From Deltaproteobacteria bacterium (GTDB lineage Bacteria; Desulfobacterota; Binatia; Binatales; Binataceae): a stretch of 64,000 bases of DNA. Made by a program: the position numbers and the translations under genes. Positions 1,543 through 30,862 of the stretch are shown one piece after another. The notes under the pieces were generated by a model, which saw nothing but the letters and a program-made list of their open reading frames with translations, was not told where the DNA came from and made no database searches. The DNA is taken from positions 4,454 through 68,453 of the forward strand of contig JAKAVC010000025.1 of the NCBI GenBank assembly GCA_021817345.1, given 5' to 3'. Numbering within the stretch: position 1 is the first letter of the stretch; each line of letters opens with the position of its first letter.

Positions 1543-1563
1543 GGCCGCGTCCCGCATCCGGCT

Positions 1564-2469: not shown

Positions 2470-2482
2470 CGCGTGACGCCGC

Positions 2483-3487: not shown

Positions 3488-3501
3488 CGCGAACGCTCCC
3501 G

Positions 3502-4881: not shown

Positions 4882-4888
4882 CGTCGCG

Positions 4889-9859: not shown

Positions 9860-9908
9860 GGGTCTGTCTTAGGGGTTCGTTTCAGGTTTTCCTTGTTGCG
9901 CATCGGAT

Positions 9909-11848: not shown

Positions 11849-11964
11849 GTTGGACCCTCTCGGCCACGCATCCGAAGCCGGATGCGCCGACGGCCCCGTC
11901 GGACGGGACGCGGATTGCCTGGTTTGCGGACGCGGGCATCCGACAGGACTTCAAGGCCATAAGC

Positions 11965-12969
11965 TCAGGCCATGTAGTGGCGCACCATCCGCCAGGAATC
12001 CTTGATGTTCTTGCCGAACTCGAGAGCGGCCGTTCCCTCGAACCCTGAATGCAGCTTGCAATCGCGGCATCGGAAGTCCTGCTTGGTGCGATAGAACTCC
12101 CAATCGGTCGCCTCGTGAAGCTGCTTGAACGTCTTGTAATGGCCGTTGGTGATGAGATAGCAGGGCCCCTTCCATCCCTGTGGATTACGCGTGACCGTGG
12201 TCCACGGGCTGCACGAGAGATCGCGGTCGCCGGTCAGGTAATCGAGGTAGATGGGCGTGTTGATGATCTTGTAGTGGTCGGCGAGCTCGCGCACCCGGCG
12301 GAACTTGAACGGCATCTCGTCGCTCTTCAGGTAGATGTCGTCGTTGGTCAGCACCTGGTAGTGATAACCGGGCGTGAGCAGCATCCCGTCCACGCCGAGG
12401 CCCGCGAGCATCTTGATCAGCTCTTCGAGTTCCTCGGTGGTGGTCTCGCGGAAGACCGTGGTGTTGGTCTGGACCCGGTAGCCCTTCTCCTTGAGCATCT
12501 TGATCATCTTGACGCAGGTGTCGAAGACACCCTGCTTGTCGACCACGCGATCGTGCGTTTCGCGCATGCCGTCGAGATGGATGTTGAAGCTAAGGTACGG
12601 GCTGGGCGGCACCTGGCGGACGAAGCGTTCGAGCAGGATCGCGTTGGTGCAGATCTGCACGTGACGCTTCTGCTGCTCGATCAGCCCCCTGGTGAGCGGG
12701 ACGATATGCTTGTACATGAGCGGCTCGCCGCCGCAAATGGACACGATCGGCGCGTCGCATTCCTCGGCCGAGCCGAGCGCTTCTTCCAGCGGCATCATGT
12801 CGCGGATCGTGTCCTTGTATTCGACGATCCGCCCGCATCCGATACAGGCGAGGTTGCACGCATGAAGCGGCTCGAGCATCAGCACCAGCGGAAAATACTT
12901 CTCGCCCGCCTTGCGCTTGCGGCGCATGTACCGGCCGAGGTCCGTCATCAGTTTAAGCGGCATACGCAT
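11965..12969 (-). CDS. hpnH: adenosylhopane synthase, radical SAM (HpnH)
   Basis: CNLACIGCG radical-SAM cysteine motif near the N-terminus, about 334 aa, closely matches the HpnH family. It is the first gene of the minus-strand hpn operon. Confidence 0.8.
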   Translation of the reverse strand: MRMPLKLMTDLGRYMRRKRKAGEKYFPLVLMLEPLHACNLACIGCGRIVEYKDTIRDMMPLEEALGSAEECDAPIVSICGGEPLMYKHIVPLTRGLIEQQKRHVQICTNAILLERFVRQVPPSPYLSFNIHLDGMRETHDRVVDKQGVFDTCVKMIKMLKEKGYRVQTNTTVFRETTTEELEELIKMLAGLGVDGMLLTPGYHYQVLTNDDIYLKSDEMPFKFRRVRELADHYKIINTPIYLDYLTGDRDLSCSPWTTVTRNPQGWKGPCYLITNGHYKTFKQLHEATDWEFYRTKQDFRCRDCKLHSGFEGTAALEFGKNIKDSWRMVRHYMA

Positions 12970-13009: not shown

Positions 13010-13756
13010 TCAATGCTCGGCCTTGACGGCCTCCGTGGCTTCCCGTTCCGAGGCGTGAAACAGCCACTGGTCGACCATCGAGACGGCCGACTCCGGATTC
13101 ATCGTGGCCCTCGGCATAAACAGGAATTCGATCATGAGCCCGTTCAACGCCGAAAGGATGAAACCTGCGGCGTCCTCGGGCGTAAAGCCGCTCGCGCAGA
13201 CTCCGCGATGCTGAGCGCGCGAGATTAGCTCGACTAACATGTTCCGGTATCCGCTGTAGAGCCGCATGATCTGCTCGCCCAGCCCTTCGGAAAGGCGCTG
13301 CTCGCGCAGCATCTGGGCCAGGAAGAAGCGCACCGAATTGGCGTGGTCGCGCACAAAGAGCAGGTAGAACTCGACCAGCCTCAGGATCTGATGGCGCTCG
13401 TCGAGCATCCGCGATTCTTCGGCAAAGTCGATGAAATAAGGCTCCAACAGCCGGTTCAGGACCGCCAGGAAAAGTTCTTCCTTGGTTTTGAAATGCCAGA
13501 AAATCAGGGCCTTGCTGACTCGCGCCTCGCGCGCGACTTCCGACATCGAAGTCTCATGGAAGCCGCGGTTGGCGAAAAGTTGCGTCGCAGCCTTTAGAAT
13601 CTCGTCGCGCGAGTCCTGCGACTGCTGTCCGTGGCTTTCCTGCGACTGTCCCTTGAGTTGAGATCCAACCATGCTAAGGAAATGGTCCCGCGGCATTCGC
13701 CGACCCTCGGACGCGCCGCTCAGGCCTTCCGGCCTCGATCGAAGCGCCCTTCCCAT
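13010..13756 (-). CDS. TetR/AcrR-family transcriptional regulator
   Basis: HTH region FANRGFHETSMSEVAREARVSKALIFWHFKTKEELF. The true start is likely an internal Met (MPRDH or MVGSQ). Confidence 0.7.
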   Translation of the reverse strand: MGRALRSRPEGLSGASEGRRMPRDHFLSMVGSQLKGQSQESHGQQSQDSRDEILKAATQLFANRGFHETSMSEVAREARVSKALIFWHFKTKEELFLAVLNRLLEPYFIDFAEESRMLDERHQILRLVEFYLLFVRDHANSVRFFLAQMLREQRLSEGLGEQIMRLYSGYRNMLVELISRAQHRGVCASGFTPEDAAGFILSALNGLMIEFLFMPRATMNPESAVSMVDQWLFHASEREATEAVKAEH

Positions 13757-13898: not shown

Positions 13899-14912
13899 CT
13901 ACCCCGCGAGCGCGATCTCCGCGCCGGTGCGAGCCGACGATTCCCGGGCCGCCTCAATAAGCCGAAGCGCGGTCGATACTTCCCTGATGTTCCGAAGCGC
14001 GGCTGCCGAGCCCGGACCCTCCCCTATCGCCTGCTCGAATTCCGCCGCAACCCCGGCGAACCATGCCGAGTGATAGCTGTCGTCGGGCGCGTCAACGACC
14101 GAAAGATCCTCAGTCCTGCCGCCTCGCTCGGTCAGGATGAGGCGGTCGCCCTCGATCTCAAGCGCCGCGCGCTCGCCGTAAAGCGATGCCGAGGTGCGTC
14201 TGACCGGCGCGCGCCACGACATATGCGAGCGGCCAATCCGCCCGCTCGAAAACCTGACCCAAAGATCGGCGACATCCTCGACCTCGCCCTCCCTGCCGAC
14301 GCCGAGATGCGCCGATACCCCAAGCGGCGCGTCGCCGCCCATCAGCGACTGCATCAGGTACGACACGTGCCATCCGTGATCGACGAGGATTCCGCCGCCG
14401 AGCGCGCCGGCCGCGCGCCAGCTTCCCGGTCCGCCGGCGGGCTGGGTCCTCAGCCGTTCGATATTCAGCAGCGTAAGCGCGCCGAGCCTGCCCGACGCAA
14501 CAAGTTCGAGCGCGCGCCGATAACTCGGCGAATGCTTCCAGTTATGCACGCACATCAGCACGCGCGAGACGCGCGCCGCCATTTCAGCGAGCGCGGTGAA
14601 TTCACCGATACCGAGGCAGAGCGGTTTCTCGCACAGCACGTGCGCGCCGGCTTCGAGCGCCGCCCGGATAGCGGGAGCGTGAAGCGCCGGCGGGCTCGCT
14701 ATATCGATGAAGTCGGGCGACTCACCCGCTAGCATCAATTCGAGGTCGTCATAGACGCGGACGTTATTCGCAAGCCGCATCGCCAGATGACGCCGCTCGG
14801 AGAGCGGGTCGTGAACCGCGACGATGCTGACGCCGGGGCGCGAAAACCATCCTGGCAGATGGCCCCGGGCCGCAACCTCGCCGAAGCCGGAAATTACCCC
14901 GCGCAGTTTCAC
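13899..14912 (-). CDS. Gfo/Idh/MocA-family NAD(P)-dependent oxidoreductase
   Basis: N-terminal KLRGVISGFGEVAARGHLPGW Rossmann motif and an EKPL motif. The likely GTG start at 14912 overlaps the stop of the upstream LLM gene (GTGA). The ORF-track start at 14951 is also possible. Confidence 0.6.
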   Translation of the reverse strand: MKLRGVISGFGEVAARGHLPGWFSRPGVSIVAVHDPLSERRHLAMRLANNVRVYDDLELMLAGESPDFIDIASPPALHAPAIRAALEAGAHVLCEKPLCLGIGEFTALAEMAARVSRVLMCVHNWKHSPSYRRALELVASGRLGALTLLNIERLRTQPAGGPGSWRAAGALGGGILVDHGWHVSYLMQSLMGGDAPLGVSAHLGVGREGEVEDVADLWVRFSSGRIGRSHMSWRAPVRRTSASLYGERAALEIEGDRLILTERGGRTEDLSVVDAPDDSYHSAWFAGVAAEFEQAIGEGPGSAAALRNIREVSTALRLIEAARESSARTGAEIALAG

Positions 14913-15775
14913 ATCCAGGCGCGCGCGATATCCTCGAGCTCGCTCTCCCACTTGTCGGGCGCGAGACTCGGCGGAAACAGGACCAGGCGATGCGCTCCGG
15001 CGCGCTCATATTCGCGGGCGGCGGCGTGAGTGTCCTTGCCGCCCGCCGGTGCGAACACGGAGATCTCGATTTTGCCGAAATCACGGCCCGCCTCGGCGCA
15101 GAGCTTCCTCAGAGTCTGCAACTGCTCGGCAAGTTCGGCGGGCGACAGCATCAGCGGTCCCCATCCGTCGCCGATTGCAACCGTATTCTTCATTGCGCGC
15201 TCGCCGCCGGCGCCGATGCCGCCCGCTCCGATCAGGATTGGAGGATGCGGCTTCTGCGCGGGCTTCGGGTAGCTTCTGACCGGCGGGAACTTGACGAATT
15301 TGCCCTCGAAGCTGGGCTCGGGCCGGGTCCAGAGTTGCTTCATCGCGCGCACGTACTCGCGCGTCATCGGCCATCGCCGGCGAAAATCGACGCCCATTAT
15401 CTCGCTTTCGTCCTTGAGCCATCCCGCGCCGATACCGAAGATGAAGCGCCCGCCGGAATAATGATCGAGCGTGGCGACCTCCTTGGCGAGCAGGAGCGGG
15501 TTGCGTTCCGGAACCAGGCAGATTCCGGTGCCGAGCTTGATTTTGCTGGTCGCGGCGGCCGCCAGCGCGAGCGCCATGAACGGATCGGGCATGTGCGAGT
15601 AAACTTCCGGTATAACGCCGTCGCGGCTGGCCGGATAGGGCGTCACATGATGGACGGGGATTATCGGATGCTCGGGGATGAACAGCGAGTCGAAGCCAAG
15701 CTGCTCGCATTTGCGCGCAACCGGGCCGGGTTCGGCGGTGTACTCGGCGATAAACGCGAGAATTCCTATCTTCAT
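14909..15775 (-). CDS. LLM-class (luciferase-like) flavin/F420-dependent oxidoreductase
   Basis: 288 aa with a bacterial-luciferase-like pattern (GFDSLFIPEH, GTGICLVPERNPLLLAKEVATLDHYSGGRF). Confidence 0.6.
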   Translation of the reverse strand: MKIGILAFIAEYTAEPGPVARKCEQLGFDSLFIPEHPIIPVHHVTPYPASRDGVIPEVYSHMPDPFMALALAAAATSKIKLGTGICLVPERNPLLLAKEVATLDHYSGGRFIFGIGAGWLKDESEIMGVDFRRRWPMTREYVRAMKQLWTRPEPSFEGKFVKFPPVRSYPKPAQKPHPPILIGAGGIGAGGERAMKNTVAIGDGWGPLMLSPAELAEQLQTLRKLCAEAGRDFGKIEISVFAPAGGKDTHAAAREYERAGAHRLVLFPPSLAPDKWESELEDIARAWM

Positions 15776-15866: not shown

Positions 15867-16373
15867 TCATCGCCAGCCGAAGAAATCCTTCGCGTAGATG
15901 AAGCGGCCGACGCCTGCGGCGCGCGCCGCCTGCTCGTCGATTTCCTGGTCACCGACCATCGTCGAGGCCGAAAGATCGACTCCATACATGGCGGCCAGTT
16001 CTTCGATCATCCCGGGCCGCGGCTTGCGGCATGCGCATCGGTCGGCGTCGTCGTGCGGGCAGACCATCCATCCGCTCAGGATTCCGCCCAGTTCTTCGTC
16101 GAGCCTCGCAAGCGCCGCCTCGACCTTCTCCATCGTGACCCGGCCGCGCTTGATGCCGGCCTGGTTGGTGACGACGAAAATCAGATGGTCGCGCATCGGG
16201 CCGAGCCTTTCGGCCACGCCGGGCAGGAGCCTGAGCACGACGTTTCCGTTCGCGTCGAGCGGAAGCTGGCGCGTCTCGTCCATCTCCACGAGCGTTCCGA
16301 CGAGGTCGCAGAAAAGGGCCTGGTTGCCGGCCGCTTCAGTCATCGCGGGCAGCCCCTTCAGGCGGCGCGCCAA
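15867..16373 (-). CDS. HAD-superfamily phosphatase, GmhB (D,D-heptose-1,7-bisphosphate phosphatase)-like
   Basis: DxD motif (FCDLVGTL), VTNQAGI, and a C-terminal GDQEIDEQAARAAGV. 16-nt overlap with the aminotransferase gene. Confidence 0.5.
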   Translation of the reverse strand: MARRLKGLPAMTEAAGNQALFCDLVGTLVEMDETRQLPLDANGNVVLRLLPGVAERLGPMRDHLIFVVTNQAGIKRGRVTMEKVEAALARLDEELGGILSGWMVCPHDDADRCACRKPRPGMIEELAAMYGVDLSASTMVGDQEIDEQAARAAGVGRFIYAKDFFGWR

Positions 16374-17728
16374 TCGACGTTGTCGCGCACGTAGGCGAAG
16401 ACTTCATCGAGGATGGCGGCGCCGGCTTCGGCCTGTTCTTCGGTGATCACCAGCGGCGGATTGATCCGCACGCGGGGAAAATAGCTCATCGTGAGCAGCC
16501 CGCGCTTGAGGGCTTCCTTGAAGATCACCTCAGTAACCTTGCGATTAAGCAGTTCGCCGGTCTTCTCGTCGCGCACTAGGTCCATCCCGATAAACAGGCC
16601 GCGTCCGCGCACGTCGCCGACGAACTCGTACTTCTCCTTGAGATCGAGCAACCTGCTGAGTAATGTCGTGCCGACCTTGCGCGAATTCTCGACCAGGTTC
16701 TCGGCGTTGATCGTTTTAATCGTCTCGGCGACCGCGACCGCCGCGAGCGGATTCCCGCCGTAACTCGACGACGACGCGCTGGGCTTGCCGAACGGCTCGG
16801 CCTTTCCGAGTTCGTCGCTGAGCAGCACGCCAGAGACCGGAAATCCCGAACCCATCCCTTTGCCGACCGTCATGATGTCGGGCTTGGCGCCGGAATGCTC
16901 GACGCCCCACCATTTCCCGGTGCGGGCGAATCCGGTGATCATCTCGTCGGCGACAAGCATCGCGCCAAGTTCCTTCGCAACCGACTTGATCGCGGGCAGC
17001 CAGTCGTCGGGCGGCACCACGTTGCCCGCGGTTCCCTGCATCGGCTCGACCAGAACCGCAGCGACCGCTCCGGCGGAGGAATTCTTTATCTGCTTGCGCG
17101 CAAATTCGACGCAGAAGAGCCCGCAGTGCGGATACTTCATCCGAAACGGGCATCGATAGCAGTCCGCGTACGGCACCTGGTAGCGTCCTCCGGGAAGCGG
17201 GCCGTAGCCCTGCTTGGATTCGTCGCCGATAAGCCCGATCACGCCGCCGGTTTTGCCGTGAAAGCCGCCCCAGAAGCTCACGACCTCGTATTTCTTGGTT
17301 ACGGAACGGGCCAGCCTGAGCGCGGCCTCAACGGCCTCGGCGCCGCCGCTATACAGATGCGCGCGGTTGAGCCCTGCGGGCGCGGCCTCGGCGAGCAGGC
17401 GCAGCGCCTCGGCGCGGCTCGCGTTGGCGAAGGTGCCGACAATAAGCCGGCGCGATTGTTTTTCGAGCGCCGCGGTGAACTCGGGATGCGCGTGGCCGAG
17501 GCTCGCGACCGCGACGCCGGCGAAAAAATCAACGTAGGTGTTGCCGTCCGCGTCGGTCAGCGTGGCGCCGTCGCCGTGGTCGAAAGCGACCTCGGCGAGT
17601 GAGGAGATTCGCTGGCGACCGGGGGCGATATAGCGCTGTTCCTGTTCGAATATCTCCCGCGACCTGGGTCCCGGGACCGGAGTTTTGATGCTTGGAAGTT
17701 TGGGTTTCGAAACTTGTGAAGTCGCCAT
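16358..17728 (-). CDS. class-III pyridoxal-phosphate aminotransferase, HpnO-like (aminobacteriohopanetriol synthase candidate)
   Basis: 456 aa with the AT-III pattern (FFAGVAVASLGHAHP, ADEMITGFARTGKWWG, TVGKGMGSGFPV with the Lys site). Located in the hpn neighbourhood. Confidence 0.6.
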   Translation of the reverse strand: MATSQVSKPKLPSIKTPVPGPRSREIFEQEQRYIAPGRQRISSLAEVAFDHGDGATLTDADGNTYVDFFAGVAVASLGHAHPEFTAALEKQSRRLIVGTFANASRAEALRLLAEAAPAGLNRAHLYSGGAEAVEAALRLARSVTKKYEVVSFWGGFHGKTGGVIGLIGDESKQGYGPLPGGRYQVPYADCYRCPFRMKYPHCGLFCVEFARKQIKNSSAGAVAAVLVEPMQGTAGNVVPPDDWLPAIKSVAKELGAMLVADEMITGFARTGKWWGVEHSGAKPDIMTVGKGMGSGFPVSGVLLSDELGKAEPFGKPSASSSSYGGNPLAAVAVAETIKTINAENLVENSRKVGTTLLSRLLDLKEKYEFVGDVRGRGLFIGMDLVRDEKTGELLNRKVTEVIFKEALKRGLLTMSYFPRVRINPPLVITEEQAEAGAAILDEVFAYVRDNVDWRAA

Positions 17729-17774: not shown

Positions 17775-18599
17775 TCAACGCGTGCGGCGTATCAACCTCA
17801 TCGCCCGCCGCGCAATCGCGCGCGCCGCGGGCGCACGAACCTGGCTATAACTGGGCCAGTCATTAAAGTCGATAATCGCAAAACGTCCGCCACTCAAGAC
17901 CGCGTCTCCGCCCCACGCCTGCAGGCCGAGCGCCGCCGCCGCAACCGAGGCGGCCTCGGCAAGCTCGCGCGCGACGTTGGCGGCGACTTCGCCTTCCTCG
18001 CCCAGCACCGAGAAGTATTCGCCGCCGCTTACGCCATAAAACTTGACGACCCTTCCCTCGACGGCCTGCTGAACGTAAACCGTATGAACACCCCGGCGGG
18101 CGAACGCCCGGATCGTCTCGAGCAGCGGCGCCTTGCCGACCACCTTTTGCACGTCGTCGGGTCCAAGTGCGTGCAGGTCGCCGCGCTTGACGTAAACTCC
18201 GGCGTCGAGATCGAGTGGGGTCAGCGCCTTGAGATTGACCGGCTCGGCGGTGCCGAGGACGGCTCCGTCGGGCGTGGGCACACCGGCGCGCATCAGCCCA
18301 ATCCCGAGCAGGTCGCGATAGCAGTTGCGAATCGCGAGCGCCGTGTTGAGCGTCAGAACGCCGCGTGCCTCCATCTCGGCCACCCGCTTGAGCGCGGCCT
18401 CGCCCTGGCACATGACCAGCAGCAGGTCGGCGCCGACCGGGTCGGTTCCCGCGGCAAAAGTCTTCGCGTCAAGGGCCGAAGTTTCCACGCCGAGCAACGA
18501 AAGCTCGTGGAGCACGGCGTCCATGATTGCGGCATCAGCCTCGACCTTCCCTGGGGAGAACTCATGCTCGCGATAAATACCGATTGCGCGATGCGTCAT
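17775..18599 (-). CDS. ATP-grasp-like ligase (RimK/GshB-like fold), unknown substrate
   Basis: 274 aa with a pre-ATP-grasp-like N-terminus, GVPTP, a VYVQQAVEGRVVKFYGV nucleotide-binding-like segment, and a C-terminal AIIDFNDWPS (ExN-like). Remote call made by eye. Confidence 0.4.
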   Translation of the reverse strand: MTHRAIGIYREHEFSPGKVEADAAIMDAVLHELSLLGVETSALDAKTFAAGTDPVGADLLLVMCQGEAALKRVAEMEARGVLTLNTALAIRNCYRDLLGIGLMRAGVPTPDGAVLGTAEPVNLKALTPLDLDAGVYVKRGDLHALGPDDVQKVVGKAPLLETIRAFARRGVHTVYVQQAVEGRVVKFYGVSGGEYFSVLGEEGEVAANVARELAEAASVAAAALGLQAWGGDAVLSGGRFAIIDFNDWPSYSQVRAPAARAIARRAMRLIRRTR

Positions 18600-19306
18600 G
18601 CTTTGTCTCCCATCGTGGCGCGAGCCGCTTCGAGGTCGGACGCTTCGTCAACGTCTATCGCCTCGCTTAGTTCGATCGCGCCAAGCAGCAATCCCTTGTC
18701 CAGCAGCATGGCAAGAAACTGCCGCATCGCTCCGAGCCCGGCGGCGCGCGCATCGGCAACAAAATCGAAGATTCGTTGCGGTAAGTAGTAGATGCCGGCG
18801 GTGACGGTGGGGCACTGCCCGCCGCCCAGCCGGGTTATTGTCTGGTTTGTGGAAACCTCCGCGAAAAGCGGACGCTCGTCGCCCCGCCATCGGACGACCC
18901 CGAGCGCTCCGTCCATCGCGCGCTCCGAGGTCATCGCGCGCGCGCTTGAAACAAACCTGCGCATCTCGCCCGCCGGCATCACCGCGTCAACCGTGGCGAG
19001 CACGAAATATCCGGGCGCAAGCCGCTCGCCGAGCGTGAACAGCGACTCCATCGAGTTGGCCGTGTCACGCACGACAAGGTTCAGATATTCTGGCAACTCC
19101 ACCCGGCGTTCCTTAACCAGGCGCGCGGTTTCGGAATTCACCACCGCGAGCACCTCGCTCGCCCCGGCCTCGCGCAGCATCGCCGCCTGACGCGCGATAA
19201 GGGTCTTCGTGCCGAGCGTCACCAACGGCTTTGGGACGCCGCCCGTGCTGCTCCGGAGTCTTTCTCCCCGGCCAGCCGCGATAATTGCTCCTTGCAAGTT
19301 GGCTAC
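18596..19306 (-). CDS. sugar/alcohol-phosphate nucleotidyltransferase (MobA/GlmU-like NTP-transferase domain)
   Basis: N-terminal AIIAAGRGERLRSSTGGVPKPLVTLGTKTLI is the nucleotidyltransferase signature. The likely GTG start at 19306 abuts the stop of the upstream HAD gene. The ORF-track start at 19360 overlaps that gene. Confidence 0.55.
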   Translation of the reverse strand, partial: VANLQGAIIAAGRGERLRSSTGGVPKPLVTLGTKTLIARQAAMLREAGASEVLAVVNSETARLVKERRVELPEYLNLVVRDTANSMESLFTLGERLAPGYFVLATVDAVMPAGEMRRFVSSARAMTSERAMDGALGVVRWRGDERPLFAEVSTNQTITRLGGGQCPTVTAGIYYLPQRIFDFVADARAAGLGAMRQFLAMLLDKGLLLGAIELSEAIDVDEASDLEAARATMGDKA

Positions 19307-20040
19307 CACCGGATGGCGAGAAGCTCGTCGAGCGAGCCGATCACACAATCGGGAACGCACGGGGTTTCCACATCCTTGGGCCCACCATTGCCCGCGTCAA
19401 TGAGGATAGTGCGCATGCCAAGCCGATGGGCCGGGACGCAGTCCTTGAGCAGCGAGTCTCCAACCATCGCCGCCTCCCTGGCGCTTATCTGAAGTCTCGC
19501 GAGCGCCATCTCGAAAATTCGCGGGTCCGGCTTGAATATACCGACGCGCGTCGAGTCGAGCGCCACGTCGATTAGCGCTTCCATCCCGGCCTCTCCAAGC
19601 ACGGTCTCCAGATTCCCGTAGAAGTTTGATACCACCCCGAGCTTGAAGCGTGGCTTTAGTTCTTCGAGAAGCCGACGGCTGTGCTTGAGACCCGCGGAAG
19701 TCTGCTCGACGAAATCCGCGACGATACGCTCGGCAAGCCTCGCACGTCCTTCGCGCCCCATCTGTTCGAGGCTCTCCCTGACACGACGTGGGCCTTCCAT
19801 TCGCAGGCATTCGAGCTGCTTTCCAACCAGAAAGCCGGTCAATCCCGCAAGTCCGAGACCTTCGAGCGAAGCAGGCTGCGCGTAGCCGAGCCGCGTCGCG
19901 TCAGTGAAGGCTCTATCAAACTCCTCACGATGAAGCTCCAGGCCGGCTGAGCGATAACATCCGAGGAACCGATCAAGCCAATGCGAGGCGAGGTCGAGGG
20001 TGCCGCCAAAGTCGAACAGAATCGCGCGAAGCTTGGTCAC
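19303..20040 (-). CDS. HAD-IA family hydrolase/phosphatase
   Basis: N-terminal ILFDFGGTL (DxG motif), VVSNF, and GDSLLKD motif IV. It is the first gene of the 7-gene minus-strand operon. Confidence 0.6.
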   Translation of the reverse strand: MTKLRAILFDFGGTLDLASHWLDRFLGCYRSAGLELHREEFDRAFTDATRLGYAQPASLEGLGLAGLTGFLVGKQLECLRMEGPRRVRESLEQMGREGRARLAERIVADFVEQTSAGLKHSRRLLEELKPRFKLGVVSNFYGNLETVLGEAGMEALIDVALDSTRVGIFKPDPRIFEMALARLQISAREAAMVGDSLLKDCVPAHRLGMRTILIDAGNGGPKDVETPCVPDCVIGSLDELLAIRW

Positions 20041-20180
20041 TTTGTGGCCCAGTTTATCAACCGGCGCAGAGACGCTCCAGAAAGAGCCAAATTAAGGCTT
20101 TGCCGACATCGAGTACGTCTGGCATCTTTGAAGAACCTGTTATCGAACGCTAGCACGTCGACGGTCCCGGAGACTCTGAT

Positions 20181-20882
20181 TTGGGTTACATTGCTGTTAA
20201 ATCCAACGCCTTGCGCGCGTTCTCGCTGGTATTGCTTTGGCTTGTTTTCCCCGTCGCAACCCTCGCCGCCCCATCCGCGGCCCCGGGTGAAAGCACGATC
20301 CGCAGCCTCCTCGCCGCGATGAGAGCCTACGCTCAGGCCAGGACGCCCGCTGAAAGGGCGGCGGCTGCCGCTAAAGTAAGCCGCCGCCTCGCCCTCCGAA
20401 CGGTGGCGCAGGAATCCCTTGGCACCCAATGGCAAAAGCTGAACCGTGCCGAGCGCGACCGCTTCGCGGCACTCTTCGAACGTTCGGTGGAAAGCCTCGC
20501 CTACCCGCGTGCGGCGCGGGCACTTGCGCAAATCAAAGTCAATTATCTTCGGGAAACCGTGAAAGGCCGCGAGCGGTTCGTCCACACGACGGTGACACGA
20601 CCCGAGGGCGGGACGCTTCCGGTCGATTACACACTCACCAAGCAGGACGGCCGCTGGACAGTTGCCGACGTAAGCCTCGACGGGGAGAGTCTCGCAAAAG
20701 CGGTTCGGACCCGCATTCAGAAGGCTCTTAACGAGGAAGGCTACGCGAAGCTCGTGGCCGACCTCAAAAAGCACGTGGAACAGGGGAATTCCGCCAGTTC
20801 CGGAGCCAACGCGCGGTCGTCCGGAAGGGACGGTGCGGACAAAGCACTTTCCGATCGGTCAGTCCAAGAGCCTGCGCGTTGA
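20181..20882 (+). CDS. MlaC/Ttg2D-family periplasmic lipid-binding protein (HpnM-like)
   Basis: Signal peptide, about 230 aa, tolerance-to-toluene Ttg2D-like composition. In other hopanoid producers HpnM is a Ttg2D homologue. TTG start. Confidence 0.45.
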   Translation: MGYIAVKSNALRAFSLVLLWLVFPVATLAAPSAAPGESTIRSLLAAMRAYAQARTPAERAAAAAKVSRRLALRTVAQESLGTQWQKLNRAERDRFAALFERSVESLAYPRAARALAQIKVNYLRETVKGRERFVHTTVTRPEGGTLPVDYTLTKQDGRWTVADVSLDGESLAKAVRTRIQKALNEEGYAKLVADLKKHVEQGNSASSGANARSSGRDGADKALSDRSVQEPAR

Positions 20883-20954
20883 TTTAACACCTGTTTTCAT
20901 CTAAGAAACTTGGTTCTATAACCGTAAGTAATAGGCGGTTAACCAGGAATTCAC

Positions 20955-22151
20955 TTGATCGAGACAGCATTAGTGACTGCGCCGCCACGCGGCGGCGAGG
21001 CGATTTTCGGACGCCCGCTGCTCGAACGGCTTCTGGCCAGCTGCGAACGTGTCGGTATCAAGCGCTTTTTCATCCAGGCAACGGCTGAAGAACGCGAACA
21101 GCTTGCAAGGTCGATGGGTCGGTTTGCGGGACGACCCGAGGTGCGGGTGGTTGACTCGTTCGAGGAGCTGTTGAACGGCCCGAACCGAATTGACCCCTCA
21201 GCGCCGTGCCTCGCGCTCAATGGAAATCTGGTGATTTCGTCGTGGTTCCTGAACCGGATCGTCGCCGAGGGCGAGCATCAGGGGGGCCGGGTGACGACGA
21301 TGCTGAGCGCGGACCCGGAGCGCGCGGGTTCTATCGCGATTGGTCCGGTCGCCGAGTTTGTGCGTGCGGGGGTGGCGGCAGGCACCTCCGCCCGGACCGC
21401 ATCGTGTCTGCCGTTCGCGCTCAACGGACGTCCGGAGGATCGCGAGGAAGCCGAGATGCGCCTTGCTTGCTCGCTCAAGCAGGAGACGGCCGCCACGGAC
21501 GCCTTCCTTGCGCGCCATCTCGATCGCAACCTGTCGTGGCGAATCAGCGTACGGCTCGCGCGTATCCGCGGCGTGACGGCGAACCTCGTTACGGTCGCAA
21601 ACACCGCCGTGGGATTGTTGTGCGGATGGATGTTCGCGTCGCCGTCGTATTGGGTGCGGATGGCGGCGGCGATTTTGTTCCTGGTCTCAATCACGGTTGA
21701 CGGGGTGGACGGCGAGATCGCGCGGCTCACGATGACGGAAAGTAAATTCGGCGGGATGCTCGACAAGGTCACCGACAATGTCGTGCATGTCGCGATTTTT
21801 GCGGGAATTTTTGTCGGTTGCTATAGGACGTCGGGCAGCGCAGCCTATTTATATCTGATTCCGGTCGTGCTCATTGGCTTCTCGCTGTGCGCTATCGCGA
21901 CTTATCGGGCGTTTCGGGTGCACGGTGCCGACGCCGAAGAATGGATTTCAAGGGTGGACAGGACCAGCGGGCGCGATTTTGCCTACCTGCTGGTGCTGCT
22001 CGCGGCCGTTAACCGTTTGAACTATTTCGCCTGGGGTGTCGCATTCGGTACTTACGTGTTCGCCTTCGGCCTGATGTGGCTTACCCAATATCGCTGGGGG
22101 CGAGCGGAAACTGGCGCTGGCCCAAATAGTGCGCCAGCGGAGGAACTATGA
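20955..22151 (+). CDS. fusion protein: N-terminal degenerate NTP-transferase-like domain plus C-terminal CDP-alcohol phosphatidyltransferase domain
   Basis: A perfect CDP-OH phosphotransferase motif DG-x2-AR-x8-G-x3-D-x3-D (VDGVDGEIARLTMTESKFGGMLDKVTD) with flanking TM helices. The N-terminal 180 aa loosely resemble a nucleotidyltransferase domain (ALVTAPPRGGEAIFGRPLLERLL). The overall architecture resembles IPCT/DIPPS-type fusions. TTG start. Confidence 0.55.
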   Translation: MIETALVTAPPRGGEAIFGRPLLERLLASCERVGIKRFFIQATAEEREQLARSMGRFAGRPEVRVVDSFEELLNGPNRIDPSAPCLALNGNLVISSWFLNRIVAEGEHQGGRVTTMLSADPERAGSIAIGPVAEFVRAGVAAGTSARTASCLPFALNGRPEDREEAEMRLACSLKQETAATDAFLARHLDRNLSWRISVRLARIRGVTANLVTVANTAVGLLCGWMFASPSYWVRMAAAILFLVSITVDGVDGEIARLTMTESKFGGMLDKVTDNVVHVAIFAGIFVGCYRTSGSAAYLYLIPVVLIGFSLCAIATYRAFRVHGADAEEWISRVDRTSGRDFAYLLVLLAAVNRLNYFAWGVAFGTYVFAFGLMWLTQYRWGRAETGAGPNSAPAEEL

Positions 22152-23473
22152 AAAAGCCGCGAATTCTGCTGGTTCAGCCGACGACCGTTCATCTGGACGG
22201 AACGCCGCACAAGACCCGATGGCGGCTGATCATCGGGCTCATGATCCCATTGATGGCGGGACTTACACCGCCCGAGTATGACGTAACGCTCTGTGACGAA
22301 CGCCTGGAGGACCTCGACTTCGACGCGGGATGGGATCTGGTCGGAATGACCACCACCATCGGAGCGTCGTTGCGCGCCTATCAACTCGCCGACGAGTTCC
22401 GAAAGCGCGGAATTCCGGTCGTGATGGGCGGCTTTCATGCCACGCTCCAGACCGAGGAGGCGCTAAAACACGCCGACGCCGTGGTCCAGGGCGAGGCCGA
22501 CCTGGTCTGGGCCGAACTGCTCCAGGACTGGCGCGACGGCAAGCTCAAGCGCATCTACAAGGGCGACAAGCTTCACGACCTAAAAAATCTGCCGCGCCCG
22601 CGCCATGAACTGCTTAAGCTCAACCGCTATCTGTTCAAGGCGCTTCCGATCCAGGCAAGCCGGGGATGCCCTTATCGATGCTCGTTCTGCGAGATCCCGG
22701 TCTTCTATGAAGGTTCGTACCGTACCCGTCCGGTCGGCGATATCATCGAGGAAATCAAGAAAAACATCGAGATAACCGGCTTTCGCCGCTTCCAGTTCAT
22801 CGACGACCAGATCACCGGCAAGCATCGCTTCGCCAAGGAACTGTTCAAGGCGCTCGCCCCGCTCAACATCCGCTTCTCGTGCCTGTGGACGGTCAATTCC
22901 AACCACGACGAGGAGCTGCTCGATCTCGCGGCCAAGGCGGGAATCTTTCACGTCAATATCGGCGTGGAATCGATTAGCCAGGACAGCCTGCTGTCGATGA
23001 ACAAGATCCAGAACCACGCCAAGGAATACAAAAAGCTGCTCAAGCGCCTCGAGCAGCACGGCATTTACTACTCGCTCAACTTCCTGTTCGGGCTCGACGA
23101 GGACCATCCCAAGATCTTCGACGACACGCTGCAATTCCTGCACGAGGTGCGCGCCCCCGAGGCGTTCTTCAACACCGTCACGCCGCGCAAGGGCACCCCG
23201 ATGCGCGCGAAGCTGGAGGCCGAGGACCGCGTCATCATCCCCGACGCCGACATGTACACCAACAACTTCCGCTGCATGTTCATCCCGAAGAAACTCAGCC
23301 CGCAGCAGGTCGAGGAAGGCGTCTGGCGATGCACCAAGGAATTCTACTCGTTCAGGTCGATGTTTAAACGCCTGCTGATGCCGCCGAATAAGTACACCTG
23401 GCAGGGCCTGACCGAGAACATGCTGTTCTGGTACGGCGCGAAGCGTCAGATCGATCCGGTCGATTACTATTGA
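22148..23473 (+). CDS. B12-binding domain radical SAM enzyme (class B; HpnJ/HpnP/HpnR-like candidate)
   Basis: N-terminal cobalamin-binding Rossmann domain, then QASRGCPYRCSFCEIP (CxxxCxxC), 441 aa. The start overlaps the upstream stop (ATGA). Confidence 0.7.
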   Translation: MKKPRILLVQPTTVHLDGTPHKTRWRLIIGLMIPLMAGLTPPEYDVTLCDERLEDLDFDAGWDLVGMTTTIGASLRAYQLADEFRKRGIPVVMGGFHATLQTEEALKHADAVVQGEADLVWAELLQDWRDGKLKRIYKGDKLHDLKNLPRPRHELLKLNRYLFKALPIQASRGCPYRCSFCEIPVFYEGSYRTRPVGDIIEEIKKNIEITGFRRFQFIDDQITGKHRFAKELFKALAPLNIRFSCLWTVNSNHDEELLDLAAKAGIFHVNIGVESISQDSLLSMNKIQNHAKEYKKLLKRLEQHGIYYSLNFLFGLDEDHPKIFDDTLQFLHEVRAPEAFFNTVTPRKGTPMRAKLEAEDRVIIPDADMYTNNFRCMFIPKKLSPQQVEEGVWRCTKEFYSFRSMFKRLLMPPNKYTWQGLTENMLFWYGAKRQIDPVDYY

Positions 23474-23557
23474 GCCGGCCTGTTCGCCGTAAACCCTGAA
23501 AATCCGCGCGGGGCCGGAGCGATTCGCTTCGGCCTCGCGTCTTTGCGCGAAGCCGCC

Positions 23558-24034
23558 TCATCCGCCGCCGCGCACGCGCCTGTCTGCCGCCTGCGTCTTC
23601 AACCCCTCCAGGTGCAGATAGGAGTAAAGCGCCGAAAAAGCCGCGGCGTGAAAGGCAGCCGCGTACGCGGACAGAAGCCGGAGCTGCGCAATCCGACCCG
23701 CGCCGCGCCCGGTTAGAAGCCGCCAAACTCCGAAGAGCGAGAAAACCACGAGCGCGTAAGCCAGCATCCAGAGCGGCAGCCGGCGCATCCATCGCGGAGC
23801 GCCGCGCGTGGCCGCCTTCCACTTGTCACGCCATCGCAGACCGCGCGTCATCGCGTGCCCGGCGAGAAACGCCGGCATCCACACGATGAAGACCGCAACG
23901 AAGGCCGCCACGGTCAAATCGAAGAGCATCGGTGTCCAGATTCCGGCGAGCGAGACTACATGCAGGCACGCGCTTGTGACCGCGCCCGCTCCCGAAAGAA
24001 CCAGAAACGGCACGGCCCACGATTGGCGCGACAT
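23558..24034 (-). CDS. hypothetical small integral membrane protein
   Basis: 158 aa with 3-4 hydrophobic helices and no recognisable family. Confidence 0.3.
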   Translation of the reverse strand: MSRQSWAVPFLVLSGAGAVTSACLHVVSLAGIWTPMLFDLTVAAFVAVFIVWMPAFLAGHAMTRGLRWRDKWKAATRGAPRWMRRLPLWMLAYALVVFSLFGVWRLLTGRGAGRIAQLRLLSAYAAAFHAAAFSALYSYLHLEGLKTQAADRRVRGGG

Positions 24035-24137
24035 GCAACCCTTCTAGCGGCTCATGAACCGGCGTTCCAGACCGCCCTGCTCCATCAAGCCGCCCGCAGC
24101 CGAACCCGGTACGCGACGATGAAGTGTCGCCGACCCG

Positions 24138-30849: not shown

Positions 30850-30862
30850 ACAAAAAACCCTT

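What the first reader, a model, noticed from the sequence alone, without database searches (positions are those of the whole stretch)
20181..23473. Operon linking an MlaC/HpnM-like lipid carrier, a fused NT-like/CDP-alcohol phosphatidyltransferase and a B12-radical SAM enzyme
Three plus-strand genes are present, the last two overlapping by ATGA. The middle gene has a perfect CDP-alcohol phosphatidyltransferase catalytic motif on a TM scaffold. It is fused to an N-terminal, apparently degenerate, nucleotidyltransferase-like domain. This is the architecture of IPCT/DIPPS (CDP-inositol / di-myo-inositol-phosphate) enzymes, not of any known hopanoid enzyme.

It is flanked by a Ttg2D/MlaC-type periplasmic lipid-binding protein (the HpnM family) and a cobalamin radical SAM enzyme (HpnJ ring-contraction-like, or an HpnP/HpnR-type methylase).

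This suggests a phospho-alcohol head group being installed on a (hopanoid?) lipid and trafficked by the Mla-like carrier. Alternatively it could be a membrane-anchored DIP-like solute synthase.
Basis: partly seen in the sequence, partly recalled or inferred. Interest (0 to 1): 0.7.

Follow-up and report, generated by a model that had tools for sequence, protein, structure and literature searches.

The report
Hopanoid-linked CDP-alcohol head-group gene cassette
The three genes are real, but they are one arm of a roughly ten-gene cassette, conserved in two bacterial phyla and tied to hopanoid genes, that probably builds a CDP-activated head group and attaches it through a phosphate to a membrane lipid; no such hopanoid lipid has been described.

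Summary
Three plus-strand genes are present: an MlaC-family protein, an NT-like/CDP-alcohol phosphotransferase (PT) with an intact catalytic motif, and a radical SAM enzyme that overlaps PT by ATGA.

The interpretation needs three corrections.
- **Size of the unit.** It is larger than reported (13899-23473). It includes a divergent operon encoding HAD-IA, an active nucleotidyltransferase, an ATP-grasp enzyme, a class-III aminotransferase, HAD-IIIA, an F420-type oxidoreductase and a GFO/IDH/MocA oxidoreductase.
- **MlaC.** The gene is accessory (9 of 78 Binataceae loci) and scores below the HpnM cut-off.
- **The rSAM.** It is not HpnJ, HpnR or HpnP. It belongs to an unnamed, very conserved family whose closest solved fold is AprD4, a B12-independent diol dehydratase.

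PT and rSAM are adjacent in 69 of 71 Binataceae species loci. The orthologous cassette recurs, reordered, in Syntrophobacteraceae. There it shares an operon with HpnJ and with HpnN-like or HpnL-like genes. rSAM relatives elsewhere sit beside HpnN-HpnM-MlaA or SHC-HpnA-HpnH.

The best reading is a CDP-alcohol pathway that installs a phosphodiester-linked (amino)polyol head group, most likely on an extended hopanoid. The chemistry is inferred, not shown. I found no description of the cassette in the literature searched.

The parts
20955..22151 (+). PT: membrane CDP-alcohol phosphotransferase of the AF2299/DIPPS type. It has a conserved but motif-less nucleotidyltransferase-fold N-domain (aa 1 to about 175) and a six-helix membrane domain.
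   Evidence: Pfam PF01066 at 9.4e-13. The best NCBIfam hit is IPCT/DIPPS, C-terminal half only, 75.6 bits against a cut-off of 580. PDB sequence hits: AF2299 at 1.6e-13 and 4mnd at 1e-9. AF2 model and Foldseek matches. Motif confirmed. The N-domain has 56% mean pairwise identity across Binataceae, with invariant residues.
22148..23473 (+). Radical SAM enzyme of an unnamed, highly conserved family with an N-terminal Rossmann/B12-like domain. It is translationally coupled to PT.
   Evidence: Pfam Radical_SAM plus a marginal B12-binding hit. It is below every NCBIfam cut-off: BchE 101/481, HpnJ 74/578, HpnR 50/650. C174, C178 and C181 are invariant. It is 84-90% identical within Binataceae and 53-58% identical across phyla. 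The AF2 model has pLDDT 89, and its best PDB match is AprD4 6fd2 (TM 0.76, E 4e-22). ATGA overlap.
20181..20882 (+). MlaC-family periplasmic lipid-binding protein with a signal-peptide-like N-terminus. It is an accessory, lineage-variable member.
   Evidence: Pfam MlaC at 5.9e-23. HpnM TIGR03481 scores only 62.1 bits against a cut-off of 160.1. A homologue is present between HAD-IA and PT in 9 of 78 Binataceae loci. Most loci have only a 170-500 bp gap there.
20041..20180 (.). Divergent intergenic region between the two operons, presumed to hold the promoters.
   Evidence: Gene coordinates. No consensus sigma-70 site was found here, so the promoter role is inferred from geometry only.
19303..20040 (-). 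HAD-IA phosphatase, first gene of the divergent operon.
   Evidence: Pfam Hydrolase, HAD_2 and Hydrolase_like. Present in 70 of 74 Binataceae loci. Orthologues at 38-40% identity lie in the Syntrophobacteraceae cluster.
18596..19360 (-). Stand-alone nucleotidyltransferase (NTP_transf_3, LicC/MurU-like) with an intact G-x-G-x-R...PK motif. It is the presumed maker of the CDP-alcohol.
   Evidence: Pfam NTP_transf_3 at 2.6e-11. PDB hits to LicC and MurU. Motif read. Present in 67 of 71 loci. Orthologues at 37-38% identity in L172 and L173.
17775..18599 (-). ATP-grasp-like protein (ligase or kinase) with no Pfam family.
   Evidence: No Pfam or NCBIfam hit. Weak PDB hits to the C-terminal parts of D-Ala-D-Ala ligase and LysX/ArgX. 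The L172 orthologue (34-40% identity) hits RimK, LysX and MptN at 1e-9 to 1e-7. Present in 65 of 69 loci.
16358..17728 (-). Class-III (omega-type) aminotransferase.
   Evidence: Pfam Aminotran_3 at 9e-95. It is below all NCBIfam equivalog cut-offs. The best PDB relatives are GABA/ornithine-type transaminases. Present in 60 of 66 loci at about 78% identity. Orthologues at 57-58% identity in L172 and L173.
15867..16373 (-). HAD-IIIA phosphatase (histidinol-phosphatase/GmhB-like).
   Evidence: TIGR01656 scores 93 bits against a cut-off of 84. Present in 59 of 64 Binataceae loci. Not found in L172 or L173.
14909..15775 (-). F420-dependent luciferase-like oxidoreductase (TIGR03619 family), variably present.
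   Evidence: 255 bits against a cut-off of 167. Present in 37 of 62 loci.
13899..14951 (-). GFO/IDH/MocA NAD(P) oxidoreductase (weakly inositol 2-dehydrogenase-like).
   Evidence: Pfam hits. IolG scores 64 bits against a cut-off of 355. Present in 31 of 60 Binataceae loci. Orthologues at 35% identity lie inside the Syntrophobacteraceae operon.
13010..13756 (-). TetR-family regulator between hpnH and the cassette, a possible regulator.
   Evidence: Pfam TetR_N at 5.6e-20. Present in 23 of 56 loci. Its regulatory role was not tested.
784..12969 (-). Adjacent hopanoid locus: HpnG-like (+), CruF-like, HpnA, HpnE, HpnD, HpnC-like, SHC, Zn-ADH, FPP synthase and HpnH.
   Evidence: NCBIfam scores above cut-off for HpnA (467), HpnE (441), HpnD (335), SHC (725) and HpnH (393). 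An HpnC paralogue lies at 5977-6714(-).

Best explanation
The three genes are the plus-strand arm of a bidirectional cassette of about ten genes (13899-23473) that makes a polar head group and attaches it to a membrane lipid. The most likely acceptor is an extended hopanoid made by the neighbouring hpn genes.

Proposed flow:
1. The soluble enzymes of the divergent operon (GFO/IDH/MocA and F420-type oxidoreductases, a class-III aminotransferase, an ATP-grasp enzyme and HAD phosphatases) shape a phosphorylated (amino)polyol or sugar.
2. The stand-alone nucleotidyltransferase converts it with CTP into a CDP-alcohol.
3. The AF2299/DIPPS-type membrane enzyme PT transfers the phospho-alcohol onto a lipid hydroxyl and releases CMP, creating a phosphodiester-linked head group. 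PT's own nucleotidyltransferase-like domain has lost the catalytic loop and probably acts as a docking or regulatory domain.
4. A HAD phosphatase may remove a terminal phosphate, as happens in the PGP, PIP and DIPP pathways.
5. The radical SAM enzyme, translationally coupled to PT, tailors the head group or the polyol side chain. The possible chemistries are diol dehydration, ring contraction or C-methylation.
6. Where present, the MlaC-like protein carries the product across the periplasm.

Shown here: gene content, domain identities, an intact PT catalytic motif, a degenerate N-domain, conservation of the gene set across two phyla, and physical linkage to hopanoid genes. Inferred: the substrate, the acceptor, the order of steps and the rSAM chemistry.
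For: **One unit**
- The minus operon is tightly packed, with overlaps or gaps of 91 bp or less, and it diverges from MlaC-PT-rSAM across 140 bp.
- In GTDB species-representative Binataceae loci, the neighbours of PT are rSAM in 69/71, HAD-IA in 70/74, NTP in 67/71, ATP-grasp in 65/69, AT3 in 60/66 and HAD-IIIA in 59/64.
- Five loci have PT1-rSAM-PT2.

**Cross-phylum conservation with a different gene order**
- Syntrophobacteraceae loci L172 and L173 hold orthologues of PT (31% identity over the full length, 40% in the membrane domain), HAD-IA, NTP, ATP-grasp, AT3 (58%) and GFO in one cluster.
- PT's cluster includes WP_011699759 of the cultured Syntrophobacter fumaroxidans strain.

**Hopanoid link**
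- The window cassette abuts hpnH, FPPS and SHC.
- In L173 and L172 the same operon begins with HpnJ. It scores 477 bits on the 333 visible C-terminal residues, and the L172 fragment is 78% identical to it. That operon also contains HpnL-like or HpnN-like genes.
- In L093 a PT-rSAM pair sits next to an HpnN-like gene.
- In L091 the rSAM orthologue follows HpnN | HpnM-MlaA, with HpnN and HpnM both above their cut-offs.
- A sister rSAM subfamily lies in SHC-HpnA-HpnH-GT-C arrays.
- A preprint (10.1101/2025.07.29.667474) independently proposes HpnN/HpnM/MlaA-like HpnS as a hopanoid transport module.

**CDP-alcohol logic**
- PT's nearest characterised relatives use soluble CDP-alcohols.
- An active nucleotidyltransferase is encoded in trans.
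Against: - No product is known, and no enzyme of the cassette reaches an equivalog cut-off that names a substrate.
- Only 21 of 55 Binataceae loci with enough flank have hpnH within 10 kb. Part of the adjacency could be inherited synteny within one family.
- rSAM orthologues at 53-55% identity stand alone, with unrelated neighbours, in Geotalea uraniireducens, Desulfobaccales-like and Nitrospirae genomes. One at 73% identity does so in a non-Binataceae Binatia genome. The rSAM therefore does not strictly need PT.
- The L172 HpnN-like and L173 HpnL-like genes are below their curated cut-offs.
- HpnJ in L173 is seen only in part, because the locus ends there.
- The closest characterised PT relative, DIPPS, makes a soluble solute, not a lipid.
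Confidence: 0.5

Rival explanations
1. The cassette works by the same CDP-alcohol chemistry, but the acceptor (or the CDP-linked donor) is an ordinary glycerolipid. The product would be a new phospholipid head group, in the manner of PIP, AIP or PGP synthase followed by a phosphatase. Proximity to hopanoid genes would only reflect envelope-lipid genes lying near one another.
For: - After DIPPS, the next-best PT family hits are archaetidylinositol-phosphate and phosphatidylinositol-phosphate synthases (1.5e-15 and 4.8e-12). PIPS structures also match the model.
- HAD phosphatases fit a route that passes through a 'lipid-P-X-P' intermediate before dephosphorylation.
- More than half of the Binataceae loci have no hpnH within 10 kb.
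- MMPL and LPG_synthase_TM proteins below the HpnN/HpnL cut-offs could serve other lipids.
Against: - HpnJ, whose only known role is hopanoid cyclitol-ether formation (review PMC13459092), is the first gene of the orthologous operon in L172 and L173.
- The rSAM family recurs next to HpnN/HpnM above cut-off and next to SHC-HpnA-HpnH.
- A dedicated nucleotidyltransferase in the cassette argues for a soluble CDP-alcohol donor rather than CDP-diacylglycerol.
Confidence: 0.22
2. The cassette makes a soluble phosphodiester compatible solute, analogous to di-myo-inositol phosphate, glycerophosphoinositol or diglycerol phosphate. The nucleotidyltransferase makes a CDP-polyol, PT couples it to a polyol phosphate, and a HAD phosphatase finishes the product.
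For: - PT's best family and structure matches are IPCT/DIPPS and AF2299.
- The cassette has a separate nucleotidyltransferase and two HAD phosphatases, which is exactly the enzyme set of the DIP pathway (my own knowledge of that pathway).
Against: - No inositol-1-phosphate synthase or comparable polyol-phosphate synthase is in the cassette.
- Linkage to lipid transport and hopanoid genes (HpnJ, HpnN-like, HpnL-like, MlaC, MlaA) in three lineages is unexplained by a cytoplasmic solute.
- An aminotransferase, an ATP-grasp enzyme and a radical SAM enzyme are not needed for known solutes of this type.
Confidence: 0.1
3. The radical SAM gene is a housekeeping gene that merely sits downstream of PT in Binataceae. 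Under this reading the 'operon' of the finding is not one functional unit.
For: - The rSAM is far more conserved than PT (about 87% against about 56% identity within Binataceae).
- It has 53-55% identical orthologues as isolated genes in several phyla.
- In Desulfobaccales-like loci its conserved neighbours are MarC and HcyBio, not lipid genes.
Against: - PT-rSAM adjacency holds in 69 of 71 species loci, including a deep lineage where PT has drifted to 39% identity (L118).
- The rSAM is sandwiched between two PT paralogues in five loci.
- An independent PT-rSAM pair exists in a Syntrophobacteraceae-type contig (L093).
- Start and stop codons overlap in the window.
- The family recurs in hopanoid neighbourhoods.
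Confidence: 0.12

Closest known systems
AF2299 of Archaeoglobus fulgidus (PDB 4o6m, 4o6n, 4q7c), a CDP-alcohol phosphotransferase with an N-terminal cytidylyltransferase-like domain
   Same: It has the same two-domain architecture: a cytosolic nucleotidyltransferase-fold domain without the catalytic loop, followed by a six-helix CDP-OH_P_transf domain with the D-x2-DG-x2-AR...G-x3-D-x3-D motif. It is the best PDB sequence hit (1.6e-13) and a whole-length structural match.
   Different: Identity is only 18-19%. AF2299 is archaeal, and nothing I retrieved states its physiological substrate. The window protein is bacterial and is embedded in a conserved cassette beside hopanoid genes.
Bifunctional IPCT/DIPPS (PDB 4mnd; NCBIfam NF041135), the di-myo-inositol-phosphate pathway
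   Same: The domain order is the same, and it is the best NCBIfam and Foldseek match. The pathway logic of nucleotidyltransferase, then CDP-alcohol phosphotransferase, then phosphatase is mirrored by the cassette.
   Different: The score is 75.6 bits against a cut-off of 580, and only the membrane half aligns. The N-domain lacks the catalytic motif, so cytidylyl transfer must come from the separate gene. There is no inositol-phosphate synthase. The linkage to lipid genes argues for a membrane product.
HpnI/HpnK/HpnJ route to bacteriohopanetetrol cyclitol ether
   Same: It is a hopanoid head-group pathway that ends with a Rossmann-domain radical SAM enzyme acting on a sugar-derived head group. 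HpnJ itself is co-operonic with the orthologous cassette in Syntrophobacteraceae.
   Different: In the known route the head group is attached by a glycosyltransferase through an ether/glycosidic link. Here the coupling enzyme is a CDP-alcohol phosphotransferase, which implies a phosphodiester. The window rSAM is only 26% identical to that HpnJ and scores 74 bits against 578.
AprD4, the radical SAM 1,2-diol dehydratase of apramycin biosynthesis (PDB 6fd2)
   Same: It is the closest solved structure to the rSAM model (TM 0.76/0.74, E 4e-22) and the best PDB hit for the family profile (1.3e-16). It is similar in size, and its substrate is an amino-sugar/cyclitol polyol.
   Different: Identity is 20%, and the NCBIfam AprD4 model scores 53.5 bits against a cut-off of 500. 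AprD4 does not bind cobalamin (PMC12931638). Whether the window enzyme does is unknown.
HpnN / HpnM (MlaC-like) / HpnS (MlaA-like) proposed hopanoid transport module
   Same: The window encodes an MlaC-family protein next to hopanoid genes. An rSAM orthologue follows HpnN | HpnM-MlaA in L091.
   Different: The window MlaC-like protein is below the HpnM cut-off (62 bits against 160). No HpnN or MlaA gene was found among the window ORFs tested, and the MlaC gene is absent from most related loci.

Membership tests
CDP-alcohol phosphatidyltransferase superfamily (PF01066) | Signature D-x2-DG-x2-AR-x7-8-G-x3-D-x3-D on a polytopic membrane scaffold | tested here: met
   The motif is at residues 249-274. 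Pfam scores 49.3 bits against a cut-off of 22. The AF2 model has six long helices after residue 205.
Bifunctional IPCT/DIPPS (NF041135) | Whole-protein score at or above the curated cut-off (580 bits) | tested here: not met
   75.6 bits, aligned only over aa 179-339 against model positions 224-376.
Bifunctional IPCT/DIPPS (NF041135) | Catalytically competent N-terminal cytidylyltransferase (G-x-G-x-R ... PK loop) | tested here: not met
   The N-terminus reads ALVTAPPRGGEAIFGRPLL, with no G-x-G and no PK. The same holds in all 32 aligned homologues. There is no Pfam hit at E = 10 and no profile match to the cassette's own nucleotidyltransferase.
AF2299-type CDP-alcohol phosphotransferases | Nucleotidyltransferase-fold N-domain fused to the CDP-OH_P_transf membrane domain | tested here: met
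   Foldseek aligns the model over its whole length to 4o6n, 4o6m and 4q7c (E 4e-10 to 3e-9). The N-domain alone matches KdsB, RmlA, IspD and CobY.
PgsA, PssA and PIP synthase (ordinary phospholipid synthases) | Equivalog-level score | tested here: not met
   PIPS 46 bits against 170, PgsA 30 against 109, PssA 32 against 107.
HpnM (TIGR03481) | Score at or above 160.1 bits | tested here: not met
   62.1 bits. By contrast, the L091 protein scores 183.6 bits.
MlaC/Ttg2D family (PF05494) | Pfam gathering score | tested here: met
   81.9 bits against a cut-off of 26.
HpnJ (TIGR03471) | Score at or above 577.6 bits | tested here: not met
   73.7 bits, and 26% identity to the HpnJ fragment of L173.
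HpnR (TIGR04367) and HpnP methylases | Equivalog-level score | tested here: not met
   HpnR scores 49.9 bits against 650. HpnP is not among the 25 best families listed, the weakest of which has E = 3.5e-4.
Radical SAM superfamily | CxxxCxxC cluster motif in a partial TIM barrel | tested here: met
   C174, C178 and C181 are invariant in 30 sequences. Pfam scores 68.8 bits against 29.5.
Cobalamin-dependent (class B) radical SAM enzymes | Binds cobalamin in the N-terminal Rossmann domain | not testable with these tools
   The Pfam B12-binding hit is marginal (34.0 bits against 32.1). The nearest structure, AprD4, has such a domain but binds no cobalamin. No cobalamin riboswitch is present in the window.
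HpnO (hopanoid side-chain aminotransferase), considered for 16358-17728 | Orthology to experimentally defined HpnO | not tested
   No HpnO reference or model was available. The protein is a class-III aminotransferase that stays with the cassette even where hpnH is not nearby.

The most novel reading that the evidence does not exclude
The cassette makes a previously unseen class of composite hopanoids in which the head group is joined through a phosphodiester ('phosphohopanoids'). There are two possible routes. In one, a CDP-activated amino-polyol or cyclitol is transferred onto bacteriohopanetetrol. In the other, CDP-ribosylhopane is used as a hopanoid analogue of CDP-diacylglycerol. It would be made from the sugar-1-phosphate that the HpnG phosphorylase reaction is expected to give.

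The PT-coupled radical SAM enzyme would then be a fifth hopanoid-associated radical SAM family, after HpnH, HpnJ, HpnP and HpnR. Its chemistry could be AprD4-like diol dehydration or HpnJ-like ring contraction.
Probability: 0.3. Interest if true: 0.85.

Novelty: new variant of a known kind. Interest (0 to 1): 0.66.

Why it matters
Hopanoids are major bacterial membrane lipids and the source of the geohopane fossil record. Their known head groups are all ether-, glycoside-, amine- or amide-linked.

A conserved pathway that joins CDP-alcohol chemistry to hopanoid genes would add a new structural class. It would give new biomarker candidates for soil- and peat-dwelling Binataceae and for syntrophic Thermodesulfobacteriota. 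It would also give AF2299-type enzymes a first physiological context.

The hypothesis is directly testable because a cultured organism, Syntrophobacter fumaroxidans, carries the PT orthologue (WP_011699759). A MAG contig assigned to that species carries the full cassette together with hpnJ.

The work also singles out a very conserved, uncharacterised radical SAM family that recurs next to hopanoid genes.

Tried and rejected
**Readings considered and rejected**
1. I tested whether the rSAM is HpnJ, HpnP, HpnR or BchE. It is below every curated cut-off.
2. I tested whether PT is an ordinary PgsA, PssA or PI synthase. It is not.
3. I tested whether MlaC is a core member or an HpnM equivalog. Its score is below the cut-off and it is absent from about 88% of related loci.

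**Searches that gave little**
4. The genome-contig scan with the PT alignment returned only Binataceae, so it could not separate function from vertical synteny. This was solved later through the rSAM metagenome scan and a search seeded with the L093 PT.
5. Three rSAM orthologue contexts (Geotalea, Desulfobaccales-like, Nitrospirae) showed no lipid genes. I keep these as evidence against strict coupling.
6. A profile comparison of the PT N-domain with the cassette's nucleotidyltransferase found no similarity. Only fold-level evidence supports the NT-like assignment.
7. Pfam at E = 10 found nothing for the ATP-grasp-like protein or the PT N-domain.
8. The promoter and terminator scan of 19800-24200 found nothing above shuffle expectation.
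9. The Rfam scan found no cobalamin riboswitch.
10. Literature searches found no paper describing this cassette or family. The queries were hopanoid + CDP-alcohol; AF2299; hopanoid + B12-binding + radical SAM + hpnN; Binatota + hopanoid; and Syntrophobacter + hopanoid.
11. Ten further large ORFs of the window were scanned for hpn genes and none was found.

Full report
**1. Observation**

The three plus-strand ORFs are present at 20181-20882, 20955-22151 and 22148-23473 (translations).
- Pfam assigns MlaC to the first (5.9e-23).
- Pfam assigns CDP-OH_P_transf to aa 208-358 of the second (9.4e-13).
- Pfam assigns Radical_SAM (8.3e-19) and a marginal B12-binding domain (34.0 bits, cut-off 32.1) to the third.

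The phosphotransferase motif is intact: DGVDGEIARLTMTESKFGGMLDKVTD, from residue 249. The second gene's stop codon and the third gene's start codon overlap as ATGA, with GGAGGA just upstream.

**2. Family membership of the three proteins**

None reaches a curated equivalog cut-off.
- The MlaC-like protein scores 62 bits on HpnM (cut-off 160).
- The middle protein (PT) is best matched by IPCT/DIPPS, but only over its membrane half (75.6 bits against 580). PIP synthase, PgsA and PssA score far lower.
- The radical SAM protein scores 101 bits on BchE (cut-off 481), 74 on HpnJ (578) and 50 on HpnR (650). HpnP is not among its 25 best families.

**3. Structure of PT**

The best solved relatives by sequence are AF2299 (1.6e-13) and IPCT/DIPPS 4mnd (1e-9). 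An AlphaFold model built on 32 homologues has pLDDT 82 and pTM 0.72. It shows an alpha/beta N-domain followed by six long helices.

Foldseek aligns the whole model to 4mnd and to the AF2299 entries (E about 4e-10). The N-domain on its own matches cytidylyltransferases such as KdsB, RmlA, IspD and CobY. The domain has no Pfam match even at E = 10. It has no profile similarity to the cassette's own nucleotidyltransferase.

The domain lacks the G-x-G-x-R...PK loop in all 32 homologues. It is nonetheless under constraint, with 56% mean pairwise identity and many invariant residues. It is a conserved but catalytically degenerate NT-fold domain, as in AF2299.

**4. Structure of the radical SAM enzyme**

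The family alignment has an invariant C174-x3-C178-x2-C181 and 69% mean column identity across phyla. The model has pLDDT 89 and pTM 0.88.

Its closest solved structure is AprD4 (6fd2; TM 0.76/0.74, E 4e-22). The cobalamin methylases TsrM, CysS, MgmA and TokK come after it. AprD4 is also the best PDB hit for the family profile. AprD4 carries a Rossmann-like domain but binds no cobalamin (PMC12931638).

The 'B12' label is therefore not secure. Diol dehydration is a live alternative to methylation or ring contraction.

**5. Neighbourhood in the window**

A genuine hopanoid locus lies upstream on the minus strand. HpnA, HpnE, HpnD, squalene-hopene cyclase and HpnH are all above cut-off. There is also an HpnG-like gene, an HpnC paralogue, an FPP synthase, a Zn-ADH and a CruF-like gene. 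A TetR regulator follows.

Next comes a tightly packed minus-strand operon. In ascending window coordinates, it reads:
- GFO/IDH/MocA oxidoreductase
- F420-type LLM oxidoreductase
- HAD-IIIA phosphatase
- class-III aminotransferase
- a 274-aa protein
- NTP_transf_3 nucleotidyltransferase
- HAD-IA phosphatase

HAD-IA is transcribed first and diverges from the MlaC-like gene across 140 bp.

The nucleotidyltransferase has the canonical AAGRGERL...VPKPL motif, and its best PDB relatives are LicC and MurU. The 274-aa protein has no family. It shows weak ATP-grasp signals, and its Syntrophobacteraceae orthologue hits RimK, LysX and MptN. Downstream of the rSAM lie panD, panC, panB, coaX and other housekeeping genes.

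**6. Conservation within Binataceae**

PT homologues at 48% identity or more are all from Candidatus Binataceae/Binatus MAGs. I mapped the window proteins onto 89 loci. I then counted only species-representative loci with enough flank.

| Neighbour of PT | Loci with it / loci assessable |
|---|---|
| rSAM downstream | 69/71 |
| HAD-IA | 70/74 |
| nucleotidyltransferase | 67/71 |
| ATP-grasp | 65/69 |
| aminotransferase | 60/66 |
| HAD-IIIA | 59/64 |
| LLM | 37/62 |
| GFO | 31/60 |
| TetR | 23/56 |
| HpnH | 21/55 |

- The MlaC-like gene occupies the HAD-IA/PT gap in only 9 of 78 loci. Most gaps are 170-500 bp.
- Five loci carry a second PT paralogue immediately after the rSAM (PT1-rSAM-PT2).
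- Two lone PT paralogues sit elsewhere.
- One genome (L010) has the block inverted, so that TetR-HpnH-FPPS-ADH-SHC follow the rSAM.
- The rSAM is 84-90% identical across the family, while PT is about 56% identical.

**7. Beyond Binataceae: the rSAM**

Orthologues at 53-58% identity occur in Geotalea uraniireducens Rf4 (WP_011937318), Desulfobaccales-like bacteria, Nitrospirae, Elusimicrobia and others. Three contexts showed unrelated neighbours, and so did one in a non-Binataceae Binatia genome.

A metagenome scan seeded with the non-Binataceae orthologues gave further contexts:
- L091 has HpnN (887 bits against 752) divergent from HpnM (184 against 160), then MlaA, then the rSAM. This matches the HpnN/HpnM/HpnS transport module proposed in preprint 10.1101/2025.07.29.667474. 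That block is flanked by sulfate-assimilation genes.
- L155, L161 and L171 have SHC-HpnA-HpnH, then an ArnT-like GT-C, a 238-aa protein, an rSAM (43% identity), a TPR protein and an Sfum_1244-family protein.
- L093 has a 406-aa PT orthologue directly upstream of an rSAM orthologue. On the opposite strand are a 324-aa radical SAM gene and an HpnN-like fragment.
- A Desulfobaccales-type group has conserved MarC and HcyBio neighbours and no lipid genes.

**8. Beyond Binataceae: PT and the cassette**

Searching with the L093 PT recovered a Syntrophobacteraceae clade. The 90% cluster of its member P0263 includes WP_011699759 of Syntrophobacter fumaroxidans DSM 10017. Two contexts were read.
- L172: PT1(+), then on the minus strand MMPL (best hit HpnN, 514 bits, below the cut-off of 752), PT2, GFO/IDH/MocA, Aminotran_3, a 286-aa ATP-grasp, NTP_transf_3, HAD and a Rossmann-domain rSAM.
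- L173: PT1(+), then on the minus strand the 324-aa rSAM, an LPG_synthase_TM protein (best hit HpnL, 105 bits, below 196), PT2, GFO, Aminotran_3, a 270-aa protein, NTP_transf_3, HAD and a Rossmann-domain rSAM.

tblastn shows these are orthologues of the window's proteins. Identities are 58% for AT3, 34-40% for ATP-grasp, 37-38% for NTP, 38-40% for HAD-IA and 35% for GFO. PT is 31% identical over the full length and 40% in the membrane domain.

The terminal rSAM of that operon is HpnJ. It scores 477 bits on the 333 visible residues, covering model positions 155-471 of 472. The L172 fragment is 78% identical to it. It is only 26% identical to the window rSAM.

The same six-gene set is therefore clustered, in a different order, in two phyla. 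In the second phylum it shares an operon with a hopanoid head-group enzyme.

**9. Mechanism**

Shown:
- the gene set and its conservation
- an intact PT active site
- a degenerate NT-like domain
- an intact trans-encoded nucleotidyltransferase
- physical linkage to hopanoid genes in four lineages

Inferred:
1. The soluble enzymes shape a phosphorylated (amino)polyol or sugar.
2. The nucleotidyltransferase makes its CDP derivative.
3. PT transfers the phospho-alcohol to a lipid hydroxyl, most likely on a bacteriohopanepolyol.
4. A HAD phosphatase trims a terminal phosphate.
5. The rSAM tailors the head group or side chain.
6. MlaC, where present, shuttles the product.

A variant uses a point made in review PMC13459092. 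The HpnG phosphorylase reaction should give phosphoribosylhopane. A nucleotidyltransferase could turn this sugar-1-phosphate into a CDP-linked hopanoid donor. The specific chemistry cannot be decided with these tools.

**10. Rivals**

- A new glycerophospholipid head group unrelated to hopanoids. This is supported by the similarity to PIPS and AIPS and by the incomplete hpnH adjacency. HpnJ co-operonicity weighs against it.
- A soluble DIP-like solute. This is supported by the DIPPS/AF2299 similarity and the phosphatases. The transporter and hopanoid linkage, and the lack of a polyol-phosphate synthase, weigh against it.
- The rSAM as an unrelated neighbour. This is supported by its stand-alone orthologues and extreme conservation. 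The 69/71 adjacency, the PT1-rSAM-PT2 arrangement, the L093 pair and the start/stop overlap weigh against it.

**11. Novelty and limits**

The literature available here lists only HpnH, HpnJ, HpnP and HpnR as hopanoid radical SAM enzymes (PMC13459092). It contains no paper linking CDP-alcohol phosphotransferases to hopanoids. The parts are members of known superfamilies. Their combination and context are a new variant.

Limits:
- There is no product evidence.
- HpnJ in L172 and L173 is truncated by the locus end.
- The HpnN-like and HpnL-like genes of those loci are below cut-off.
- Much of the Binataceae signal may be vertical synteny.
- I could not run a genome-wide co-occurrence test with shc.

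Noticed in passing
window 30773-32053: A tRNA-Pro(GGG) gene at 30773-30849(+) is immediately followed by a phage-type integrase at 30863-32053(-). This suggests an integration site for a mobile element to the right. GC content dips at about 38-44 kb.
   Followed up: no
window 51568-51673 (-): A TPP riboswitch (81 bits, gathering score 54) lies upstream of the minus-strand ORF at 50462-51238.
   Followed up: no
window 1564-2469 (-) and 9909-10967 (-): The hopanoid locus contains a CruF-like (carotenoid 1,2-hydratase family) membrane protein between the HpnG-like gene and HpnA. It also has a Zn-dependent alcohol dehydrogenase between SHC and FPP synthase. Neither is a standard hpn gene.
   Followed up: no
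window 5863-6951 (+) / 5977-6714 (-): The long plus-strand ORF has no family hit. An HpnC-like paralogue of HpnD (32% identity) is encoded on the opposite strand, so the plus ORF is probably spurious.
   Followed up: partly
L012, L013, L015, L056 (12679-13806), L066: One Binataceae clade has a second full-length PT paralogue (about 40% identity, motif intact) immediately downstream of the rSAM. The arrangement is PT1-rSAM-PT2.
   Followed up: partly
L089 10001-11155; L065 10001-11113: Lone PT paralogues (51-55% identity) lie far from any rSAM or cassette gene. In L089 the paralogue sits beside an ABC-2/HlyD-type exporter and an amidohydrolase.
   Followed up: partly
L155 38-9186, L161, L171: A sister rSAM subfamily (42-43% identity) sits in co-directional arrays: SHC, HpnA, HpnH, an ArnT-like GT-C glycosyltransferase, a 238-aa unknown protein, the rSAM, a TPR protein and an Sfum_1244-family protein. 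ArnT-like genes also lie near rSAM homologues in L095, L166 and L167.
   Followed up: partly
L093 3131-4105 (-); L173 11410-12384 (-): A 324-aa radical SAM protein with no specific family (weak hits to PqqE, MoaA and Tes) recurs next to PT1 in Syntrophobacteraceae-type loci.
   Followed up: no
L118 155-7300: A deep Binatia lineage (GC 0.56) keeps the same cassette and the pan/coaX flank. PT, ATP-grasp and NTP have drifted to 39-41% identity while the rSAM stays at 84%.
   Followed up: no
L145 5995-7300: A Binataceae-type rSAM (87% identity) has no PT or cassette gene detectable in the 6 kb upstream. This is an exception to the PT-rSAM pairing.
   Followed up: no
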